A stretch of 64,000 bases of DNA. It comes from Ascidiella aspersa. Lineage: Eukaryota. How positions within the stretch are numbered: position 1 is the first letter of the stretch; each line of letters begins with the position of its first letter. The stretch lies in the NCBI GenBank assembly GCA_963924565.1, contig OZ004609.1:31744001-31808000 (forward strand), given 5' to 3'. Under the pieces are notes generated by a model, which searched no databases, was not told the origin of the DNA, and was given only the letters and a program-made list of their open reading frames with translations. This document shows, piece by piece, positions 5,099 to 60,900 of the stretch. Both the position numbers and the translations under genes were made by a program.

Positions 5099-5649
5099 CA
5101 GGGGTTCTTAAACTTGTTTTACCGCGGACTCGTGGACCACTGTAGGCGAAAGAAATTACAAAATGATGTCATAAATGGACTTCACAATATAAATAGACTT
5201 CATAAATTTGCTAATTTTGGTCTAAAAATGTGAAAGTGAACTGGAGTCTATAAATACATTGGGTAACACTAATTTACGGAATGATGAATGGTCGGAATGG
5301 TCGGAACGCTCACAGTATTATTATTAAATATAATAACACTTGACCCACCTTCACCCAAACGCTAACCCCACCCTAAACCAAATACTGTGCGTTGGGTAAA
5401 TAATTGTTTTAATGGGGTAACACTTAAATTAGTGAGCGTTCCGACCATTCCGACCATTCATCATTCCGTAAATTAGTATTACCCAATACATTCAGTGCAA
5501 AACCGTTTTATTTTTGATTTAATTGTTTTCTTTAATAATCTGATTACTCCCGAAATATACACTATTATTTCAAATATACCTTCATGGACCACCTAAAACT
5601 AGTTCACGGACCCCCAAGGTGTCCATGGACCCCAGTTTAAGAACCCCTG
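5099..5649. mobile_element. hAT-type MITE carrying a nested MITE
   Basis: TIRs CAGGGGTTCTTAAACT / AGTTTAAGAACCCCTG; 8-bp TSD AATCAGGA (5091-5098) / AATTAGGA (5650-5657). Confidence 0.85.
5261..5484. mobile_element. Nested MITE with ~52-bp TIRs
   Basis: GGGTAACACTAATTTACGGAATGATGAATGGTCGGAATGGTCGGAACGCTCAC and its near-perfect inverse; perfect 8-bp TSD AATACATT on both sides. The internal part recurs in inverted orientation at ~44600-44665. Confidence 0.85.
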
Positions 5650-9829: not shown

Positions 9830-10380
9830 AGAGACCTGTCACCGGTGTGAGGACATGACCACACGTGGACTCTGTTGATTCTAGACAGGGACAATAAAAA
9901 GCTTTTCCATTACTGCTGTGAAGGACACGACCACGCGTGGAGGCTTCTACTCGCAGAAACCGGGCGTTTTTGCCTTCCTTTTAGAAGCTTTTCCTTGGCA
10001 GGCCTGTCACTGCTGCAAAAGAGACGACCACGCGTGGACGCTGCTACTTACAGAAACCGGGCGTTTTTACCTTCCTTTTAGAAGCTTGTCCATGTCTGTT
10101 CTGCTTAATCCTGTCACCGATGTAAAGGACACGACCACGCATGGACTCTGTTGCTTCTAGACACGGACACAGAGCGTCTTGGATTCCATTGAGAACCTTT
10201 TATATGTCTGCTCTGCTTAGACCTGTGACCGATGTGAAGGACACGACCTTTCTTGGACCCTGCTGCTTACAGACACTGAGAAGCTTTTCTGTGTCTGCTC
10301 TGGCTTCGACCGGTCACTACTGTGATGGACACGACCAAACGTGGTCGCTGCTGCTTGCAGACACCGGACGTTTCGTCTTT
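9830..10380 (+). repeat. Degenerate tandem repeat (~6 units of roughly 75-110 bp) in the presumptive Lsm11 3' UTR
   Basis: Recurring core CCTGTCACyGxTGTGAAGGACACGACCACGCGTGGAC..CTGCT.C..AGA.AC..AGAAGCTTTTC, with units starting near 9835, 9909, 10003, 10110, 10222 and 10310. Confidence 0.85.
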
Positions 10381-45951: not shown

Positions 45952-48900
45952 TCACCTCGAATTTAAGGACTTCGCCTTGACGAGCTTCTTAATTTCACCA
46001 TGAGATTTCTATAAAACAGGGAAAACATTGACGAAAAGTTTATAATAAAACTTAAAAATTTAACTGAAGATGATACAATCTCGTATCGAAACGTCTTAAC
46101 CAATAGAATGTCACACTACTCGACCTTTTTGGCTTTGTAATTCATTATCAAGCTACATTACAGATCCGTGCATAGACTACCCAAAATTTGGAAACATTTT
46201 ACAAAAATATTTTTTAGCTTACTCTTATTGAACTCTTTTCGAAAGTTATAGTAATCTTACCTCGAACTTTCGAATGAACTTGTCGAAAATGTTAAAGAAC
46301 TGTTGCATGCCGATGTTCTTGGGGTTTTCCCCGAAGTACTGCGCCACCTTGTTGAACTCCTTAAGCGTCGAAGCGTGAAGTTGTTCAAGCCGCTTGATGG
46401 AGCCATTGGTGCGCACCAGGCACGTTTCCATAGCGATCCTGGAAAGAAATAGAAACAATTTGAAGAGGTGCAATGTTGGGATTCCACTGATTTCCAGAAT
46501 TTTATAACTTCAAAAGTAGCTTGTTTGATTAAATCAGTGTTTATTTTTCGAAAAGTTGAAATAAAGACATACTGTCGTTTATAACACCCCAGGTAAGATA
46601 AAAAGAAAGCCATCATTATGTAAATAGTTTACTGAAGAATGACACAAGCACATATTGCGGTTGGGGCTCATACCAATGTTGTATAATGGCTAAAGTCAAT
46701 GACTTTATAACTTAACGTGTAATTTTTATCACAAAGACTTGACTTGAACTTAAGTTAGTTTACATATGACTTGACTTAGACTTAAGTTATTTCACAAATG
46801 ACTTGTTTAGCACACTGGGAAATTCTATGAATCAACTATAGGTAAAAGGACTACACATTTCTCTGTTTAAGTAAGTGATTTTTGGGTACGGATTCCTCAA
46901 CTATTATCTGCTATCCTTAAACCGATAGTGGAACTTTCACAACATAGTCCACAAAGGCTCCAGGCTGATGAACACACGTACTTGAAGCGGTCTTGTTTAT
47001 TCTTGGAAGCTGTCTCGAGAAGGTGATCCCGAATATGGAGCCAGACGCGACGCAACTCTTGCAGCTCTTGCAAAACAGCCGGGTACACGACTAGAAAACA
47101 AATTTAGGACATAAGGCTAGGATCGTGCAATAACACACTAAACAAATCAATACAAACAGCAAAATCACAGCAAAATCACAACGAATTCAAATTAAAACCT
47201 AAATACTAACAAACAAAAAACGTTATCAATACTTTACCTAAAATAGCTCGAAAAAATGTATTTATGGTATGATGAATTCAAATTTTATGATATCTATCTT
47301 TTAATATTTTAAGTAGGACATTTATTTGTTAAGCGACGAGTTGATACTAATATTACTCGTTTAACATAATAAATCGTTCATTATTATCAATTAAAAAGTT
47401 TCAGGGTCGACTGACCTAATAGTAATTTTATGTTTTTTAATCTGTTTGATACTGTGTTCGAATTTGTGACAACAAACAAACAGTTATCATATGGAGATTC
47501 TTTTCATAATTAACTCACTTCTGGCGGCTGCTGCTACGTCACTCAGCTCGTCACCAAAGGTAAGAACCTCAGGGAACTTTGAGAGCACAGCTCGCGCGAG
47601 GATGTGCATGAAAGTTAACTTGTTGTCGCTCGTCTTTGTGTGATCCATCTAGTGACGAAATTTAAAAAAATTAAACCAAAGCGTTTTTTTGAGAAAAAAT
47701 AACTAATTTAATATCTTTTGGAAATTGTATGTTAAAAAAATAATTTACTTTAATTAAAGTTATTTATGGCAGTTTACACAAAGTTTGTTTAAAGAGTATT
47801 TATGTAATCGTTTTTTTAAGATTATTGTTACTAAACTTCTAAAGTAAAGTATTCAGACATTGGGCTCAGTAAAGTGGTTCTGATGTACACCTAAGCTTAG
47901 TTGTTGACTCGAAACACTGAACATAAATAGCCTACGGGGTAAGTTATCATAAATATATCCATTGCCCATAAGCATGATTTTGGGATTTGACATTTTTTTA
48001 GGCTCGAGATTGCAGATTTGGAACTGTTCTCTAATTAAATTGATATAAAAACGTTACTCTAATAAAAATACTAAAGTAATTATATTCGATAAAATTGTTA
48101 TTTCGTTGTTTACTAATGCGTCGGCAATCCTCGAGACATTGCCGAAACTTTTATAAACAAATAAATTACGATTTTGTCGAGTATAATAGCTTTAGTATTT
48201 TTATTAAAATTACTAAAAAACGTGTATTGTGTTGCAAAACATTAGTTCCATCACTGCCTCAGCGGGAAATTCAATTATTTATCACTTACGTCTGCGAGAA
48301 AGTGGATCCTGAACCCGGTCGCCTTGGCAACGCGGTTGTGACCCCGGTTCATGTAGTTGCCCATCGCGAGCACGAATTCGAGGATCTTGGCCAGTTTCCG
48401 GCTCTTACGTAGCTGGTTGGACGCGCGCTGGACGGTCTCCAAGTTCTGCGTGACGTAACAATGGATGTGGTTAACGAGAACAATAGAACGATTGTTAGAT
48501 TGCTATGGAACTGCATTTATGCTCCAACAACGCGTCAAGGTCGTTTTTTATAAATAGAACATACATAAATCGCGTGTTAATTAATGTTAGATTTCGAAAA
48601 CTTTAACCGTTTGTATGCTATTTAAATTGAAAACACTAAATTCTCAATTTTGTTTCCTAAAAATGAGACCCTTTTTTTCGGAATTATTTTTGTACGCATG
48701 CCGAATATATAAACTCCTTTCACCGCAATACAAACATAGGGGCTAGAGGTATTTTTCACAATTTTGGGACACTAATGTTAGAATTGGCACAAGTTTGTTT
48801 CATCCGGCCTGTACCCAGTTAAACATATTTAAAAAATTTAAAATCTTTCCTCATCTTGACTACAAACTGTCAAATTACCTTTCGAACTTCTTCCTCCTTT

Positions 48901-51900
48901 TCAGCAAAACTGTGCTTGAAAACCAACGCTTTTAATCTTAACTCGTAACCAGGAATTCTGACGAGCTGTGAAATAAAAACAAAACGTTGTTGGGGGCAAG
49001 CGTGGCGAGTTTTGTGTCCAATGGCTCCCGTTGTTTTACGTTGCTCTTTAGGAAAATTTGACCAGTAGAAAAAAATCATCAATAATAATAATTGGCTTAT
49101 TCCCCAAAATTTGTGCTCGTTGAGTTGTTTTCTGGTGGCTCTTTTGGAATGCTAAATACTAATCATAGTCGAATGAGAATCGATTTAATTAGTTGATAAT
49201 TTTTGACATTTACCTCAACTTGGGTTGTTGTGGTAATATACTGGGCCATTGTAGTGTTATATTACACCTTTTGTTTCAATGCTGTTTTATCAAGTATGTA
49301 TCGATTGCAAACTGGGCCGATTTTTTCACAATGTTTTGTATGGTGTGCAATTATTTTGCAGATAGCTTGGACTTTTTAGATAGTCACCTCGACCTTGATT
49401 AAATGACTTGTTTATACCACAAAAAACCTTTTAAAAAATTAGAGATAAAAAAATACCCCATCAACGATTTACCCAACTAATTGCTTCCAGAGCTACAATT
49501 TTTAGAGCACTGCCCAGTCTGGCCTTTGCGGAACGGTCGCGCTCGGGCGCTTTCGGGCAGTGACAACGCGCGCGCGTTGAGCGCCTTGTTAAGATTTCTA
49601 TTCTGCGAGAGATTACGTCACAAGCAAAACGCGCCGAGCCGCGTCGACGCGCCTGAATTGAGTTACAAGGAGCTCCAGACCGCAAAAATGCGAGGTTGGG
49701 CGAAATCTAGCCCCGGGGATGCGCGAAGCTGAGGCGATTCTGTGATTATGTGTATAGGTGCTTAATGCTGAGCGCAAATTGCCTATTGGAGCACCGATTT
49801 TGCAATTTCGGTCTCAAAACAAACGCATCTCGATTTAGTGCATAGTCATGGTAGAAAACTTTTGCTTTCTACGCTTACTTTATTAAACTTAAGACAAACG
49901 ATGTCAGGGGGTTTGTGTTGTTTCATTGGGTATTGATGGTTTGGGTTGACTTTTCTAAAAAAACATTAATATATACACTTTGGAGATATGATTCTTCTTC
50001 TTTTAAGTTTGAAGTTTACAACAAGTTACAATCAGTCACTGCCATATTTGTCAAGCGTAGCAACACATTTTGCAACATGAATGTTTTCTTTCATTCAGCA
50101 AAAAAGGTCCATTTTATTTCAAGTTTGGCATTACAATGTTTTAGTTGACCACACATGGGATGTGTAGCAATTTGAAACTGATATTGAGCACACAAATATG
50201 CTAACAAAGCCTAAATAACATATTGATCCCATATTTGATCCCACCGTCCATAAACTGCCGGCGCTTAAAATCAGCTCTCCCTATTTACCGTATGTAAGGA
50301 CCAACAACACATAACAAGCAGTAAATCCCATTTTTCAATCCATTATCTCAATTAGAACCAAGTATTCTAGTCTTTCTAAAAAACGTACCTTAAGAGCCAG
50401 CTTGTCGGCTTCGTTGAGGACAGTCGGACTTCCTTCGAAGGCCAGAATCTTCGCAGCCTCATCCTTGTCGGGAGCGTAGAGGAGGAGTTGCTGGAAGTGA
50501 GCCGAGTCCATCCTCTTCCGCATCATCTCGGATCCGTTGATGGTGAGGCAGTTGAAGATCTCGTCGCTTGAGAGCTTCAAGTGGGCAAGGAGGATCGCTG
50601 TCATGGCAACAGAAGAGGTTATAATACTAAAAATGTGGCCACTGTCTGTTTTTGTGCTGGCATCAGGAAATTTAGCTTTAAAGTTAAACTGTTACAGTTT
50701 GGCTTTAACTTTCACGTATGTGAAACTGTTTTAACCTAAACGTATGTGTAGCTGTTTTAACAAACACAACCGACCATTGCAGTGAATGAAAATAGTATAG
50801 CCATAGGCAGCCGAAGATCATAATTGGGCCCGACTATAGACAGTATAAGATTGGTATTTTGTAGCACTACGAAAAGAGCAATCAAAACAAACGGTCCTGG
50901 GCGGAATTTTCTTTAGTAGCAAAATATGTCTTATCCTACGAGGAACATTTTATGTTTTCGCTGTTACAACAATGGAAATGCGAGCGTATAATTAGTATAC
51001 GACCTAATAATCTCTAAGTCTGTCCTTTTTTAAAATATGTTTTAAATGTTTGTTTATTACAACAGAATGTGATACATCATTTACTTACACATGTTGTAGG
51101 CCTTTTTGTGTGGCAGCAGCGTCACCACGTCTTTGCTTACAATTTGCTTCTTTGGTTCTAGACAAAATCAAAATTTTTAGAATTACATAGATGTCACAGA
51201 AATGGGAATAGATGTACTAGTTTGCTGATCATGTTGTAGTAAAGAAAAATTAACATTTTTTGATTTACAAATAGATATCTATGCCTTTAATTGATTAAAA
51301 AGGTTTGTTGCTTATCAAATAGGGTTAACATAAAAAAGGAATTTAAAAATAATTTAAAAATGATAATGCGTCTTCGGACTGTTTTTTTAGTTATTTTGTT
51401 ACAAAATGGATTAAAAATTAGATTTACATAAACCCAAGTTATTTTTTTGATATTAAGACAACATTGCAACGTTTTCTCTTTTTTTGAACTTTAGGACAAA
51501 TTTTTCCTTGACACACAAGCCTTTCATGCTAAAAAAGGCAGATTTCAACCAAATAAACAAACCTCACACACCAATATTGTTGCGTGATACAAATGCATTA
51601 GGAAAACTCACTGAATTTCGAAGTCTTCTTGGTGGCGAAGTGTTCCTCCAGGTCTAGGTACTTTACCACGTCGTTGATCGTTTCGAAATCCTCGTCCAGC
51701 TGGCCCCAGACCGTATTGCCGAGATCTACCGGTTCGATCTTCTCCCAGTTGATTCTCTTCACTGCCAGACGCGCCGGGCTGTTGACCGGGGTGTTTTGGA
51801 AGAGCGACGGGGGTGGTGGAGGAATAGCCGAGGCAGGAGGAGGCGGGGGAATAAAGGATTCAGGAGGAGGAGGAGGGATCATCGGAGGAGGTGGAGGAAT

Positions 51901-54900
51901 GTCTTCAAAAGAGTTTAGAGTATTTAATTTACCAGTTTCTCTATTGATTGAAACGTGACCTATGAAAAGTAGGAACTAAATGTCGACATAAATCTTCAAA
52001 GGGGCGCAAATAAAAATTACCAGTTTCTCCATGAAATGTAATGTGACCTATGAAAAATAGGAACTAAATATCGACTGCAGATTTCCAAAGAGCGAAACTA
52101 AAATTTACTAGTTTCTCCATACAATGAAACATGACCCATGAAAAAACCATAGGATCTAAAATATCGACTGTACATCTCCAAAGGGCGAAATTAAACGTTA
52201 CCAGTTTTCTCCATGCTTTAAAACCTTATCGATGTAAAAGTAGGAACTGCATATTGTGAAGATATAACATATTGGTAAGTAGTATTTGAAACTTTAGCGA
52301 GTATCTAACTTAATCTGACACGCATTCTAGTAATATACAGCTTCTAAGATATTTTATGTTGAAATTCGTTTAAAACTCTTTTAATGAGTGGTCAGGTATT
52401 TCCGTATCGCCAAAAGCCAACTTTATGTGTAAAGCTATCACTGCAACGCCAAACGCAACGTAATATAGTAATTTATGACCCTGGTGGTAAAAGTCCTTTT
52501 CGATTTCAATTCTTGTCATATAAAAACTTCACTCACCAGACGGAATCGATTGTGTTCCAATCGAGGAAGTTTGTGGATGTTCTTCTTCTTCATCTTGCTC
52601 GTGCTCATCATAGGCAAGTCCTAGAGCAAGAACCTCCTCATGGAGGGGAGCGTAGATCTCGTCGGGGTCCGCAAGCTCCTGCTCCTGCTCCAGGATGCTT
52701 TCCTGGGATCCTCGCTGCCTCCGACGCGTGTGAAGGTCCTCCTCCGCCTCCGAGAAGATGTCCTCCATGTCGACGCTGATTCCGGAAACCCGGTAGTTTC
52801 GTTTCTATGGATAAAAGTATTTTGATGCTATTTTCAATAAAGAATCATATTATTAATCCAAAAACAGCTCTTCTGGTAATTGGAATTGAATTACAAAATT
52901 ACAATTAACGACAGTTTATATATAGAGTCATATTTTTGAGAATGTCGAAACTTTATAGTTTTTTTCTACCATAACACATAAAAGAGAAAAGAAGCCCAAG
53001 TCTCTTGCTTTGGCTTTGTCCAACAAAGGGGCGAGTGGCTACGAATACTTTTTCTATAATCTCTTTATGCACACTGTTGGATTTTAACTTTCGTCGAAAG
53101 CCTTATTTGTGTTATTGAAAAGCTAAACTGATTGAATTCCATTATCAAAAAAATTAAGAAAGAAAAACCAGTAATCGAAATAAGACCCCTCACCTTAGCT
53201 TTGTCCAGCAAAGTGACTTGGTTAGTTGGCGAGTGGCTCCTAAGACGAGCTTCTCCGAAGACGTGATTTTTGTGCGGCGCCTCGCCTAGGTCGTCCTGCA
53301 TCCAGACGTGCATCTTCAGCTCAGTAGAGTTCCTCTTGGCTGACATCGAGAGCGGACGCGGGTTAGTGCGGGAGCGTCGTGTCCTCCGCTCCACAACATT
53401 GTTCCGCCTGTCCACGTTGATGTGCGGCTGGCGTCGGGTGTTGATCGGCTTTGGGACGTCGTAGATTACTTCCTCCTCAACTGGCTTGGGAGCAGGATCC
53501 GATATCCTCTTAACCTGCTGCTCGCTGGTTTCGTAGAGAGTCTCCGCGTTCCTGCCTCCCTCTACATTCCTCCTGCGTCTTCTTCGGACACCCCGGCGAT
53601 CCAGGGTGGCCGTTTCGGTCACCACGCTGTTGCTATGGTTATAGTTCGGGGCTAGCTCTTCAGGCGGAGGCAGGGATGCGGGGAAACTGTTCTGAACGGC
53701 TTCGTCCACCTCAGCGATGGTTGGAGTGGATGCGGTAGGCGAGAACCCGTTGTCCTCCTTCGGAAGATAGCTCCACTTCTCACCGAACTTGAGCTCCTGC
53801 TCTTCCTCGAGCAGCTTCACGTCGCCGACCAGCTTCATCTCCTTGTCGAACTGCGTGTTCAGCTCCCGAAGGAAGGTGTCCGTGTCGGCGTTCTTGGGTG
53901 GACGCGAGAAGGTGAGCTTCTTCTTAAGCGACTGCAGGTAGCCGTTCTTGCGCTGGTCGTCGCAAATGAAGTCATTGAAGTTGGACGGCTCCATTTCGCT
54001 CGACGTCACCGGTTCGTTAAAGCCGTTGCTGCTGGCGCGGTTTTCCTGTGGTGAGCTCTCCACAGGGACGAAGGAAGAAGTCTGGATTGGCTCTTCCACA
54101 GCGGGCACGCGCCTACGGCTGTAGTCGTCACGCTCCTCCGATTCACGGAGTCGCGATTTTGAAGAGGTGGAGGATTTGATGTAGGGGTCATCATCATCGC
54201 GGTCAACCAGTCGCTTGGATGGAGGCAGGTATTCCTCGAAAACGATGTCTGGAAAAGACAAGCAAGCGTTTTAACTTCTGTCAGTTTAACTTAAATGTTA
54301 TACACGAAAGCGGTTGCTAAACTACGTGATTTCTAAATATATATCAATTGTTTATTTCAGAGATATGATTTTGTTACAAACTTTGCCTCGCTGTGTTTAG
54401 AAAGGAAACCGTCAGGCTGCTACAAGTGGAACATTTGTGATTCACTGTTTGTTTGTGGCCTACCAACACTCAGACACCAAATATAATAGCACCGGTTTCT
54501 GTCTTCATATTTCCACCGCCAATTGACGTAGGGACAAGGCCAAGTTCGACATGATTTAGACGACAAAAATGCTGGACCTCATATTAAAATGAGTGGGCGC
54601 ATCCAAAGCCACGCATCATCAAACGGACGGCGATCGCGGCAATTTCCCACCGAGTTTACAGTAAATAGCGGTGGGTAGACGGCGGAGAAGTGAGTCGGCG
54701 TCTCCCTGCTCTGCGCCATCGTGTTTACGCGATAAATTCCTGTCACCGTTTCGACCGTGCTTCTAACGTTTCGCCATCAATCGTCACGATGACTGGGCCG
54801 CCATTGTGAAGGTGAGGGATTAGTTGTTTCTCGCTTTGCCACCCGAGAAGCGGGCTTTCATGCATTGGGGTTAGTGGCCTGTCTAAACTGTAATTGTGCT

Positions 54901-57900
54901 TGATGGTTTGAATGCAAGTCGACCTAAAGTTCACTGATTTTAACCATGGCTGCTAAACAAGGATCACACAGGTTCTTAAGATTTAATGATGAAATCACAT
55001 GATTTTAAGGCGAAGTTATTGCCGTGTCTTAACATCTGTTTTGAACATTCGTTACTGGGTACAGTTTTATTGACAAAATGAAAAAAACTTTTACTGAATA
55101 ATGGAAGGATTTTCTTAACTTCTTCATTCGCAGTATTGTATGTTATTTAATAAGCCAGGCGTAGTGAATGTTTGTTTGTTTAAAAATTATCGATTTGACC
55201 AACAACTAAAGACGGTTTAAAGTTACTGGTAATTGCAAGAGAAGCGTAAAGCCTTCAACAAAGGTGTACACGAGTCACTGTATTTGGGGCGTATAAACTT
55301 GTTCCCCGAAGTGAAGCTACAAAAAAAATATATTGATGACCAACTTGTGGCCTATTATGATTATACAGTTCTCTATAGTTTTAGCATGCCAATTTTTCAA
55401 TGTGTTATGCATTTTGAACTCATAACAGTATACCACAAATTTCATTGCTTCTCGAGTTACAAGAAAACTCTAATTGCACGTTGAGTATTTCACACCTGGT
55501 GCTTGTTATGTACGGTTAGGGATGGACTCGTGGGAAGCCAAAGACTCGCCTGTTGAAATTACAATTTTCCCTTGTTAGAATAGCCTCGGGTTGCAACGTA
55601 ATTTCACCGTGAAATAGTTACTAAACCGACGCAGTGGCTTAGTTTAAATTTGATTTCCGTCTTCGAATTATTCGAATTTTGAGCGGCATTCGAATAAGGT
55701 ATCACAGCAAAGCATAAACGCGGGACGCGGGTGTCTTAAAAACGAACATGTTCGATATTTGCGTGTAGATAAATGTTGGATTTATAACAACACGGACGCG
55801 CTTGGCTTAAGCTTGAAATACAGGTTTGGTATCGTGTGTATACATTGTCATTCTAATGCATTTTCAGTCAAAAATGAACAAAAATAGAATAACTTGCCTA
55901 TTGGCCTAGTTAACAAATGTTTCGGGCAGCAAAGACAACAGCATTGCATTTTCATTTTAAGTGACGTACGAATCAACAAATAGTCGAATTTGAATAAACG
56001 CTTTTCACAAAAATAGCATGGCATTTATAGTTCCGCCGTGACCTTAGTACCACGCTTGTTTTCTTTATCTATTTTGGCACAGGACTCAGCAAGCAACTTG
56101 TAAAGACGTCATACATTTTCTGGCGCATTTCCTAATTCGGCAAACGCCGGCGTGACAAAAACGGCTGAAAAAAACCTCGTGAGCTGGGCGCGATTGGTCA
56201 GGCTAAGATTCAGCGGAGATTTACACCTGAACGGCGCTAAAATGGCCAGTTCTATTGGCGCGCGCTAATCCTCGATTTGCATGAGTGAAATCGTGACGTC
56301 AATCCGTGCACCTCGGGCTATCAACTGATTAGTGACGTCAACGAATCGACTAGGTTCCTTCCAAAGCTTAAAGAGATGTTCGGGCGATTGCCTTAGCACG
56401 ACTGAGCTTAGACATACAAAATTGGGGCCGCTCGAATTATATGGTTTACACTCGCGGCATATTTTCACCATGAATAGTTTTGTTGAGGTTTCCATTAATC
56501 AGATGCTAGACAGCGACGTTTTTTATCTTATGTTATTTTAATTCGAATAAATAATCAACCTAGGAAAGTAATTTAGCTTTTTTATATCCTTATTAGTTGC
56601 CTTAATATAGAAGTTATTACATTACATTACATTATGGCGTGCGATTTGTTTTAAAATCATTGTGATCAATTACCACAAAGGCAACGTTAGCTAGTACAAA
56701 CCTAGTAAATCCAATATCAGTTTGTTTGGATTAATTGGAATGGTATCCTTTTAAGATACTGATGATGCTTTTATGAGCAAGATATATCTATTATGCAATA
56801 TCCAAACAAGCTCATTTTCGGTTCAGCAAGTTCTGTACTGAGTTTAATCTTTATTCTTATAGAAAACAATGCACCAAATTCAAAACAAAAACTTCACCAA
56901 ATCCATAAAACCAAAGCGGATTAAGATTTTATAGCTCCCAGAATAGGCGTAAAGGCAAATCGGCTATGAGGCGTAGACTTTGGGGTCAGGTGCATTTAAT
57001 CGAGCCGCCAAGCGTGAAATCGCAAACCCTACAAAAATCGCCGTTGAAACGGGGTTTGCAATGTATCGAGTGCTCACGAAAGCTAAGCGCCGATCGAGTG
57101 TTGGTAAATTCGAGACCTCCGCTGAAAACGATGCTGAAATCAAACCCGTTTCGCCCCGTTTGAGAGACTGCTTAGCACGAAAGGAAACCGTAGGTTAAGC
57201 GTCGCTTTAGCAAGCCTAGCGCGACCTGCTGTGAGATCAAACATCTATTAGAGGTACATAGAGACCCGCTGCTGGTCGCGCTGATAATGCTTGTAGCTGG
57301 TGTTGATCGTAATCGGAGGATGTCGATTGATCGAAGTCGTGTCCGCATAGCGCCGTGCGTTCGGGACATTTATGAACGTATTTGTCTCATACGGGAGTTT
57401 TAAACGTTTTTTTAAATGACTATTTCGTATGGATTTTTGTAATATCGTAATGGTTTGGCCCAGTTATAGATTTAAAGCAGAACTTATAATATCGCTAGTT
57501 TGATAGTACACTTCGGGCCTGTTAAAAGGCTAAAGAGTGTACACAAAAGAAACATTGTTTAGTTTAGTAGAAATTAGTATTAGGCACTGGATTTGTTTTG
57601 AGTAATTTCACAACGTTTAGGCTGATTACTTAATAAAAACTAAGCCAAAATAAACTGTTAAATCCAAAACGATTTTTGTATGTCAAATAATACAGACATT
57701 GCTCACCTAAAGAGGAGTCCGTCTTTAAATAAATCATAAAAACAGGACGTTGAAATCCGAGGCTTGGTATTGGAATTTTAGGCTTTTAAAGTGCGGTTAC
57801 GAAATTGCAACGCAGGCTCAAATGTTGTCAACATGTACAACAGGCTTATACGCGCTAATCCGAAAAGCACCAACAAAACGCCTCTTCGGCAAGATACACA

Positions 57901-60900
57901 AACGATTAAGAGCCTATTTCCCCCATTTCAGCTGAAGGTAACCGATACAGAATTTTGGAGGCTTCAAGAAATAAACAGCACAAATTTTCTCATCACTGGC
58001 AAACATTACCAGGAATGCTCAACTACATCGACAAAGTATTTAGCGAATGCTCTCCTTCAAAACGGAGCCTTGGGGCAAGTCAGAAAACAATTATCTTATT
58101 CCCTTGAATCCAACTTAAAATGCATAGGTTTGTAAAATTATTCTACCGTCAACCTCAAATGACCTCAGTATACAATTGCTTGTTTGATGAGTTACCTTTC
58201 TTTAAATATTAAATTCCCTTTGTTTTAATATCAACAGCAATTCAGGCAAAATAACTATTAGCTGTCGTATAGCTTTACAGTGAACTATTAACATAAAATG
58301 TTGTATAAAACATTGCCCAAAAATCCGCATATAAGAGGACATTTATTATCGATCTCTTTTCGTGTAAAACTGGTTTTGTTCTTTACAGAAAACTAAGATA
58401 AAACTTCTAGCCCATTTTTCATACAAACTAAAACTGTAAAGTAGCTTGATAATGAATTACAAGGCCCAAACGGTCGAGTAGATCAACAGCATCTTGATTA
58501 AGACGTTTCGATACGACTTTGTATCATCTTCAGTTAATGTGACTCATTGTCCATGTTGTTATCGAAAAGCATTAATCAAGATGATGTCGATTTACTCGAC
58601 CTTTTTGGTCTTGTAAGTCATTACAAAACGGTAAACTTTTTAACATAAATACAAATCCTTCGAGATTCATACTAAATAATATAAAGGAAATTTCGATCGA
58701 AATGTGAACAAACTTAGAAATAGCCAAGATTACAGGGCTTCAGGCATTCTGACATTCTCTTTATAAAAAATGAACAAATCTTAAAAAAAAAAATTATTTT
58801 ATTTATTTATTTTTTTATTTATATAATTTTTTTTTATTTCAAAAAGGGTACTCACCGTCGATGCTTGACACAGGAGGGGTTGAAACTGGTTGGGGTGAAA
58901 CCGGGGGCGGCGTCGACGTTTCCGCTTTGGGTGCCTTCGTTTCCTTGATCACCGGGGTCACTTCCTGTTGTTTCTTCTTGTTCGAACTCTTCTTGTCCTT
59001 GTCGCCTGCGAAAAATACGGGGGAAACGAACCGTGAGATTCTGGCACTCTTAAACGCAAAAACAACACCTGAATTTCGCGAGCTCTATCTATGTAAGCTA
59101 TTGGTTTTACGGTGGCTGAAAAGATAAACTGCCAGCGCATTGAAATAAAAACAGTGCGGCTTTTTGATTTTGTTTTAATTTAACTGCAGCTATGTAAGCA
59201 TACCTCTTAAAACAGCAAACCTGTACGATAAGCTTTTAATTTTCCATACATTTAAACAAACCTTGGGTACATAATGCACGTATCTGTAATGTGGCTTAAT
59301 ATAATAAATTGCATAAACAAAATGTCGGGTAGATCGTCATCATCTTGGTTAAGACGTTTCGATACGAGCTTGTATCATCTTCAGTTAATGTGACTGAGAA
59401 ACAATTCAGCAAATTCCTTTTACTTCTCGGTCACATTAACTGAAGATGATACAAGCTCCTATCGAAACGTCTTAAACAAGATGACGTCTCGACCTATTTG
59501 CCTAGAGTTCCTAGACAATCCTTGATTTAAAACTACAAAAATTTGAACTTATTTTCTCTGTTCCAACCTGTAACTGCTGCCTTGAACTTTTTATATTTCT
59601 TCAACATCTTTGCGACAAAATATGGCAAACGTTCGGACAACGACGAACCAACACAAGTGTCAAAATCACCAAATCGCTATCTTCTGATTCTCTCCATACA
59701 TCCGCGCAAGCAAATATCGGCGCAAGAAAAAACAACCAAGTTTTTCTAGCCTCAAGATAGTCCGTCGAATCCAGCAGGCTTAAAGAATCCCAGCAAACAG
59801 CAGAACTTAAACTGGGTATAAGTCCGATTCGCCTGCAACCGTCTGAAGAAAGCCACAACAAGTTAGGTACGGCGAGCGCGGCTAAACTGAGCTTGGCGGT
59901 TCGTTCGGTCGACTGGCGAAAAAAAAACTTTTCGGGACAGACACAGACTGCCAAGAAAACAGCGAGAGAGGCGGGAGAGTGGCTGAAGGCAAGAGAGAAA
60001 GGAAAAGAGAAGGAAACGGCGTTAAAAATGCTAAAAGTTAACTCGTGTTCGCCGCTTCTTATCGCCTGACAGATCTCGCAACCGAGAGAATTGGTGCCTG
60101 GACCTCAAACTGCCCAGTTTTACTGTTACTGCAAAACAATTTTAATTTTCTTCTTAGCTGTTTTATATAACTCTGATTTGAGGATAAAATTAGCAATTCA
60201 TGGTATGAAATTTAGTATATGGTGGCAAGGTTGCCGATGGCATGGTTTGTGGGTGCAAAAATGACATAAAACGGTGACAGACTGATATCTAACTAACTTT
60301 GTTTTCAAGGAGACTAAGTCGGGCGCAAACAACATGAAATTTTATAATATTTTCTACAGTTATGAAACGCATGCTCCTTTAATTGTTTTTAGTTTCAATT
60401 TTGCGAAAAAATTAAGCGTCTGTTAACTATATTTAAAAATCCTTCCAATTTTTTTTTACTCTGTGTCTTACAATAATCCAATTATGTAACGATATATATT
60501 CTGCCGTATCCAATCAGTTCAAAAGCCACCACTTCCTTATTAAAAACGAGCGATCGCGTTTTCGGGGTGGTCGTGCCGCTTTGTTAACCCGCAACAACAA
60601 ACACCTGGCGATCGGAGGCGGTGGCCAACAGTTTTTTAGACAGTCGCGACGCGAAAGCCTAATTCCTAATTTGGCGGCAAGAGATTTTTGAAAGTAAACA
60701 CGCGCGTTGCCTGCATCACTGCCGGACTGACGCGTGCAAGAGTGGTCTTGGACGATCGATGTACAAAACACCAAAGCACTGCTATTGTTCTTAGGACGGG
60801 TCATTGAATGTTGGGTCTACCGCTGCTGTTGCTGATGTCAACAGAATTAATGAGTTTCTTGGATGCTCTTGCTTCTTAAATACCGTGACATCAATCAAGC

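What the first reader, a model, noticed from the sequence alone, without database searches (positions are those of the whole stretch)
46060..59495. Family of short elements carrying minimal type-I hammerhead ribozymes
Four motifs (46060+, 58538-, 59388-, 59436+) have the full core CUGAAGA...GAAA...GUC. Stem II (GAUAC/GUAUC) is constant in three copies while its loop varies (aatctc, aaagtc, aagctc). Stem I is UUAA/UUAA, and stem III is replaced by palindromic ACGU, the form described for Penelope-like element hammerheads thought to cleave as dimers. Here they sit in ~170-bp inverted-repeat units with no ORF, resembling a non-autonomous ribozyme-bearing element.
Basis: partly seen in the sequence, partly recalled or inferred. 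Interest (0 to 1): 0.7.

Follow-up and report, generated by a model that had tools for sequence, protein, structure and literature searches.

The report
Penelope stubs marking a capped start
These motifs are the known minimal hammerhead ribozymes of a Penelope-type jumping gene, left in short broken insertions, and the ends of such insertions pile up at the ribozyme's front edge, which likely marks where the element's capped, uncut RNA begins.

Summary
All four motifs are real, and 188 exact copies lie genome-wide. They are not an independent ORF-less element. They are 5'-truncated ends of a Penelope-like retrotransposon (PLE) family whose RT/GIY-YIG ORF stops about 95 nt upstream. They show the textbook inverted arm, a one-sided 30-nt tail and 9-14 bp target duplications. 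Four sister PLE families carry the hammerhead in the same register with compensatory stems. Copies decay neutrally, and the head-to-head arms are predicted to pair rather than form a ribozyme dimer. The scan has noted such stubs before (92 findings, at least 21 genomes).

For families C and E the position was predicted before looking. A non-templated G precedes 29 of 54 such ends versus 32 of 189 others, the cap signature known from L1/SVA. The hammerhead is therefore likely the first ~36 nt of the capped mRNA, and uncut RNA is what gets inserted. No cleavage or start site was measured.

The parts
46060..46185 (+). Copy 1: single PLE family-A end, from the hammerhead 5' edge (+1) to the long 'tail' end (+125); antisense to a formin gene, just past an FH2-coding exon
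   Evidence: 87-90% to natural copies L007, L045 and L059 over 122-126 nt; FH2 exon at 46258-46458 minus strand, E 1.6e-10
46060..46099 (+). Minimal type-I hammerhead, intact core; predicted cut between 46095 and 46096
   Evidence: cut site inferred from hammerhead numbering
58434..58544 (-). Unit 2, arm with full hammerhead (58498-58537), element positions -6 to +104
58560..58623 (+). Unit 2, opposite arm, starts mid-hammerhead (+25 to +88), core incomplete
   Evidence: (I7)
58430..58635 (.). Unit 2 bounded by an 11-bp target duplication with one mismatch (58430 and 58625)
59263..59408 (-). Unit 3, long arm with tail (-19 to +125) and intact hammerhead at 59349-59388
59420..59503 (+). Unit 3, short arm (-15 to +75), hammerhead at 59436-59475 with a stem II mismatch; candidate 10-bp target duplication at 59256 and 59515 (one mismatch)
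   Evidence: (I5)
48053..48238 (.). Fold-back stub of sister PLE family D, both arms truncated inside the hammerhead
   Evidence: (I3)

Best explanation
The four motifs are minimal type-I hammerheads carried in 5'-truncated, partly inverted end fragments (pLTRs) of a Penelope-like retrotransposon family, and they are likely inert where they now sit. Shown: order in the element is ORF stop, ~60 nt, TATA box, hammerhead, conserved AUG 5-14 nt after the cut site, then two 3' end points 30 nt apart. Inferred: Pol II starts about 30 nt after the TATA box, at the hammerhead's 5' edge, giving a capped mRNA whose 5' UTR is the ribozyme. The RT/GIY-YIG protein would nick both target strands and prime inside the first ~50-80 nt of the ORF, at the short site on one strand and the long site on the other. 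This gives head-to-head arms with a tail on one side only. Priming at the RNA's 5'-most copy of that site would run off the capped end after 90-125 nt and copy the cap as an extra G; priming at a downstream copy gives longer, randomly truncated arms. The inserted template is uncut RNA. The ribozyme is likely selected in master elements and would need a partner RNA or the PLE protein; cutting would remove the cap just ahead of the AUG.
For: PLE link: the GIY-YIG-type ORF P0001 ends 94 nt before the motif. Family-A copies cover aa 209-847 of the intact sister protein, about 51% identical over the RT-bearing parts, with RVT_1 hits. Anatomy, in a sample chosen on +58..+92 rather than on the ribozyme: inverted arm in 57 of 84 insertions; exactly one tailed arm in 49 of 57 pairs and never two; exact duplications of 9-14 bp in 26 of 84. 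This matches PMC8557442 and PMC3846280 (passages). Structure: five families in ungapped register; 7 of 8 pairs change on both sides; covariation 0.78 vs 0.30 shuffled (0/500) and <=0.12 slid; family C has the U3-A8 core swap described in PMC4209133. 5' ends at the edge: A 25 of 85 vs 4.2 expected; B 18 of 98 vs 6.5; C 24 of 51 vs 2.5; E 10 of 56 vs 4.0 (C and E predicted in note). At the cut site: 4 vs 3.0, 4 vs 4.0, 0 vs 1.8, 1 vs 2.8. Extra G at TATA+30(+-1): 29 of 54 vs 32 of 189, P 2e-7; in L329 and L333 the G lies between the target duplication and the element. Family C has two TATA registers (-30, -28) and two start peaks (0, +2). PMC11167929 (parts 1-2): internal RT initiation, both strands nicked, protein-assisted hammerhead, uncut RNA as dominant substrate.
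Against: No start site, cap or cleavage was measured. In family B the main arms alone are not enriched (7 of 58 vs 4.5, P 0.16) and the G excess is not significant (2 of 5). In A the G excess is modest (7 of 16, P 0.04). Windows for A were chosen after seeing the data, and about half of each sample starts elsewhere. A and B also have a predicted hairpin ending at -3/-4 (z -1.5 to -2.7) that could stall RT. Family D has no TATA box and was not tested. No intact full-length family-A copy was found. One RNA run (6% read) shows no pile of ends and almost no ORF coverage for A or B. Stem I is only 2-4 bp and one A subfamily breaks its third pair. The monomer MFE forms stem II but not the hammerhead. 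D. virilis Penelope uses a TATA-less promoter with an intron before the hammerhead (PMC2377424 passages; PMC4209133), so this layout is not universal.
Confidence: 0.85

Rival explanations
1. The stubs are a self-standing non-autonomous element (retrozyme- or SINE-like) that is transcribed, self-cleaves as a dimer, circularises and is mobilised in trans.
For: Most copies are short and ORF-less, many start at one point, and no intact family-A ORF was found. Animal retrozymes derive from PLE pLTRs (bioRxiv 10.64898/2026.07.22.740005, part 1 and passages).
Against: No same-strand 150-450-bp tandem among the first 100 of 188 places. 5' junctions differ between insertions. Edge-starting and long copies share alleles at +21, +49 and +57. 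Edge-starting copies lack the TATA box. No ends cluster at the cut site. RNA reads lie on both strands and 94% run into unrelated flanks.
Confidence: 0.06
2. The stubs are PLE ends, but the 5' pile-up marks RT stalling at the foot of an upstream RNA hairpin, or microhomology joining, not a transcription start.
For: Predicted hairpins end at -3/-4 in A and B. The pile-up in A is stronger in inverted pairs (21 of 57) than in solo arms (4 of 27). Some junction G's could come from the inverted arm.
Against: Families C and E have no significant hairpin (z -0.7 and +0.1 over 60 nt) yet pile up where TATA+30 predicted, C most strongly. Stalling does not explain the extra G (16 of 24 vs 3 of 24 in C) or the two peaks matching two TATA registers.
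Confidence: 0.15
3. The window copies are exapted ribozymes acting on the host formin pre-mRNA.
For: They lie in or near a formin gene; three of four keep an intact core and full stem II.
Against: Copy 1 is antisense to the gene. Unit 3 is predicted to be locked in a duplex. 28 of 40 sampled copies have intact cores, so intactness is the default, and core and non-core decay equally.
Confidence: 0.03

Closest known systems
Minimal hammerheads of metazoan PLEs (Cervera and de la Pena 2014, PMC4209133; parts 1-2 of 4 read)
   Same: No helix III, palindromic 15.2-16.2, extra base between A9 and G10.1, G10.1-C11.1, short helix I, U3-A8 variant, mostly single dispersed motifs, some as opposite-strand pairs 100-700 bp apart.
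   Different: Helix II is 4-6 bp here, not the 7-8 bp given for Schistosoma. The parts read do not place the ribozyme at the transcription start.
Poseidon PAc of Anolis (Frangieh et al. 2024, PMC11167929; parts 1-2 of 4 and term search)
   Same: Single RT + C-terminal GIY-YIG ORF; hammerhead at the pLTR-ORF junction; insertion 3' ends inside the ORF at two sites that define the tail; uncut RNA as template.
   Different: PAc's AUG is at stem II, upstream of the cut. Here the AUG conserved in all five families is 5-14 nt downstream of the cut. 'TATA' and 'transcription start' do not occur in that main text.
EN+ PLE insertion units of Adineta vaga and general scheme (PMC3846280, PMC8557442; passages)
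   Same: Head-to-head inverted pLTR, 31-bp one-sided tail, 8-10-bp TSD, pLTR including the first codons, TATA plus Inr-like sequence in the pLTR.
   Different: Those passages explain the inversion by self-priming, possibly on antisense RNA. Here both arms vary independently and carry sense-RNA start marks.
Animal non-LTR retrozymes (PMC7229834; bioRxiv 10.64898/2026.07.22.740005; passages)
   Same: Type-I hammerhead, no coding capacity in the short units, PLE ancestry.
   Different: Retrozymes are head-to-tail tandems of 150-450 bp giving circular RNAs; these stubs are solo or head-to-head.
Cap-derived untemplated G of full-length L1/SVA insertions (PMC4859970; two passages)
   Same: Extra G at the 5' junction when RT reaches the RNA start.
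   Different: There it marks rare full-length copies; here it marks the shortest copies, because priming is internal and near the RNA 5' end.

Membership tests
EN+ Penelope-like element | Single ORF with RT followed by C-terminal GIY-YIG endonuclease | tested here: met
   Family-A pieces give RVT_1 and the GIY-YIG-type motif; intact 848- and 843-aa open frames in sisters B and C. Pfam GIY-YIG hit only on C and below its cut-off (20.2 vs 22.6 bits).
EN+ Penelope-like element | pLTR extending into the first codons; partial tandems; inverted 5' copy; 30-40-bp one-sided tail; TSD | tested here: met
   tandems seen in B and C, not in A.
EN+ Penelope-like element | Intact autonomous copy of the same family | tested here: not met
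   None for family A in three searches, which score only the best candidates; longest piece covers about aa 209-847 with frameshifts.
Penelope/Poseidon clade | DKG and N-terminal GxxF motifs, CCHH-type EN, no CX2-5CxxC linker | tested here: met
   Motif scan of B and C and A translations against criteria in PMC8557442.
Penelope/Poseidon clade | Grouping with named members in an RT tree | not testable with these tools
   No named PLE references among homologues or in PDB.
Minimal type-I hammerhead | Conserved core with covarying helices I and II and palindromic helix III remnant | tested here: met
   the structure was read from these related sequences, so the controls are indicative.
Minimal type-I hammerhead | Self-cleavage after NUH | not testable with these tools
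   No pile of read ends in one fragmented RNA-seq run, which cannot decide it.
Non-LTR retrozyme | Head-to-tail tandem of 150-450-bp hammerhead units | tested here: not met
   None among the first 100 of 188 listed places or in the window.
Non-LTR retrozyme | Abundant small circular RNA | tested here: inconclusive
   No RNA joint listed among the 15 joints shown (54 not shown); library type unsuited.

The most novel reading that the evidence does not exclude
In this PLE lineage the minimal hammerhead is the entire 5' UTR of a TATA-driven capped mRNA. The abundant 90-125-bp stubs are complete run-off cDNAs (a strong-stop analogue) from the internal priming sites to the cap. The ribozyme's job is to decap the element's own mRNA just before the AUG, switching it between insertion template and translated or degraded RNA.
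Probability: 0.5. Interest if true: 0.65.

Novelty: new member of a known kind. Interest (0 to 1): 0.45.

Why it matters
The element itself is ordinary: PLE hammerheads and their inverted stubs are described. What may matter is the record in the junctions. The role of PLE hammerheads is stated to be unclear (PMC8557442), and in vitro cleavage is not needed for insertion (PMC11167929). If the pile-up plus extra G marks the cap, then genomic copies map PLE start sites without RNA data, support in vivo use of uncut capped RNA, explain why so many copies are ~100 bp with a whole hammerhead and why helix I is so short, and recast the ribozyme as a likely self-decapping switch. I found no such report in three paper searches (listings only) or in this scan's notes. 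The library lacks most subscription papers, and I read no supplements.

Tried and rejected
Rfam: no hammerhead hit; the mir-1781 match is the fold-back, below threshold. Cleavage-defined 5' ends: no excess at +35..+39 in any of four families. 'One arm always comes from the 5' RNA copy': arms are independent (Fisher P 1.0 and 0.18). Upstream sequence sequestering the core as a switch: not above shuffles in any family (fraction 0.12-0.87). 3' splice site at -4 as the cause in A: the mode is -2 and upstream sequences are not shared. Cofolding two copies did not give the ACGU-bridged dimer as minimum; the energy model is poor for this. Full-length family A: not found. Run search: no RNA holder listed. 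PDB: no PLE relative. Rows dropped as duplicates before counts: 5-6 of 90 in A, 2 of 60 in B, 7 of 60; same-flank duplicates and arms reaching the reference end (C 51 to 48, E 56 to 54, A 84, B 57). Five evenly spaced, probably duplicated family-E sites were skipped when fetching. Samples are the first listed places (A 90 of 189, C about 50 of 1090, E about 55 of 417; B 60 of 149 protein hits), not random. The alignment had one row on the wrong strand and was replaced. Junction letters tallied by hand were recomputed by script, which is the figure cited.
Full report
Observation. The four motifs are present with the stated cores, stems and loops; one coordinate is off by one (58537). The 40-nt pattern occurs 188 times in the 309-Mb genome and 0 times reversed. 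Rfam does not recognise them. The units are about 126, 195 and 260 bp rather than 170 bp, and copy 1 has no detected inverted arm. Positions below count from the first base of stem I (+1); the predicted cut is after +36.

What they belong to. Walking upstream from genomic copies leads through about 95 nt of UTR into an ORF ending in a GIY-YIG-type domain, then thumb and RT. The longest family-A pieces cover aa 209-847 of an intact sister protein with frameshifts or stops. No intact A copy was found (these searches score only the best candidates). The same protein search revealed four sister families (B-E); B and C have intact 848- and 843-aa open frames in partial tandems. Motifs fit the Penelope/Poseidon clade by the criteria in PMC8557442; no tree with named members was possible.

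Insertion anatomy. In 84 family-A insertions sampled on a segment 3' of the ribozyme, 57 have an inverted arm upstream. 3' ends fall at about +92 or +122-125. In 49 of 57 pairs exactly one arm has the long end and none has two. 26 of 84 show exact 9-14-bp duplications. This is the inverted pLTR with one-sided tail of PMC8557442 and PMC3846280 (passages), and fits the two internal priming sites and double-strand nicking of PMC11167929 (parts 1-2). The window's units 2 and 3 are such pairs, with 11- and 10-bp candidate duplications.

Is it a ribozyme? All five families align without gaps over 48 nt. The core is invariant except a C3-G8 to U3-A8 swap in family C, and 7 of 8 stem pairs change on both sides (covariation 0.78 vs 0.30 shuffled, <=0.12 slid; 8 related sequences). 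So the fold is likely selected in master elements. Among 40 family-A copies, core and non-core positions differ from the majority equally (15/440 vs 55/1680, P 0.88), so inserted copies drift. Monomers are predicted to form stem II only, and unit 3 a long duplex that buries the ribozyme. Activity was not measured; PMC4209133 reports none for a monomer and low activity for dimers.

The 5' ends. If cleavage made the template's 5' end, arms should start at +37. They do not: 4 vs 3.0 expected (A), 4 vs 4.0 (B), 0 vs 1.8 (C), 1 vs 2.8 (E). Instead A arms pile at -5..+1 (25 of 85 vs 4.2; mode -2; inverted arms 18 of 57 vs 2.4), 30 nt after a TATA box. Four of five families have a TATA box at -28 to -37 and all five a conserved AUG 5-14 nt after the cut site. 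I predicted B's peak before looking: partly met, 18 of 98 vs 6.5 overall, but main arms alone not significant. A hairpin foot at -3/-4 in A and B offered a stalling rival, so I predicted C and E, which lack one. C gave 24 of 51 at -3..+3 vs 2.5, with peaks at 0 and +2 matching its two TATA registers; E gave 10 of 56 vs 4.0. The base just 5' of arms starting at TATA+30(+-1) is G in 29 of 54 against 32 of 189 elsewhere (P 2e-7; C 16/24, A 7/16, E 4/9, B 2/5). In two solo C insertions the G sits between the target duplication and the element. An untemplated G is the accepted sign of cap copying in L1/SVA (PMC4859970, passages).

Mechanism. Shown: element layout, insertion anatomy, end distributions, G excess, covariation. 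Inferred: the pile-up is the Pol II start; the hammerhead is the 5' UTR; short stubs are run-off cDNAs from the 5'-most priming sites of capped, uncut RNA, made independently on the two nicked strands; longer arms come from the downstream pLTR copy. Speculative: cleavage acts as self-decapping. Of the window's arms, copy 1 starts at +1 (within the pile-up, no extra G); the others start at -6, +25, -19 and -15.

Expression. One 2026 RNA run under the same species label as the best DNA holder (6% read) gave 1197 reads on family A, concentrated on the 3' end, on both strands, 94% running into unrelated flanks, with no pile of ends. It gave 55 reads on intact family B, none across the body of the ORF. 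This fits passive read-through; fragmented RNA-seq cannot show starts or cuts.

Verdict. A new family of a known kind, found many times by this scan elsewhere. The start-site and cap signature was not found in my searches, though supplements of PMC11167929 and PMC8557442, which I did not read, may bear on it. It makes the open question of PLE hammerhead function directly testable.

Noticed in passing
window 48053-48238: Second PLE fold-back stub, from sister family D, both arms truncated inside the hammerhead.
   Followed up: partly
window 44808-45471, minus strand: Three identical tRNA genes with anticodon GCA (Cys), two within a 226-bp direct repeat.
   Followed up: no
window 46258-46458 and 51601-51975, minus strand: Exons of a formin gene (FH2 hits; polyproline FH1-like stretch).
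   Followed up: partly
window 5253-5492 and 33050-33447: Terminal inverted repeats of 61 bp (95%) and 37 bp, MITE-like.
   Followed up: no
window 9850-10373 and 51926-52207: Degenerate tandem repeats of about 90-110 bp and 88 bp.
   Followed up: no
L075 2629-2676; G000 (1090 exact 33-nt matches): Family C is young and abundant, has intact tandem copies and a U3-A8 hammerhead core; its inferred RNA start lies inside stem I, leaving a 2-bp helix.
   Followed up: partly
L087: A family-A inverted unit sits directly behind a family-D hammerhead end, suggesting insertion of one PLE into another's pLTR.
   Followed up: no
family B (L202-L261) and family E (L292-L361): Secondary clusters of 5' ends at +24 and -17 in B and at +42 in E, unexplained.
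   Followed up: no
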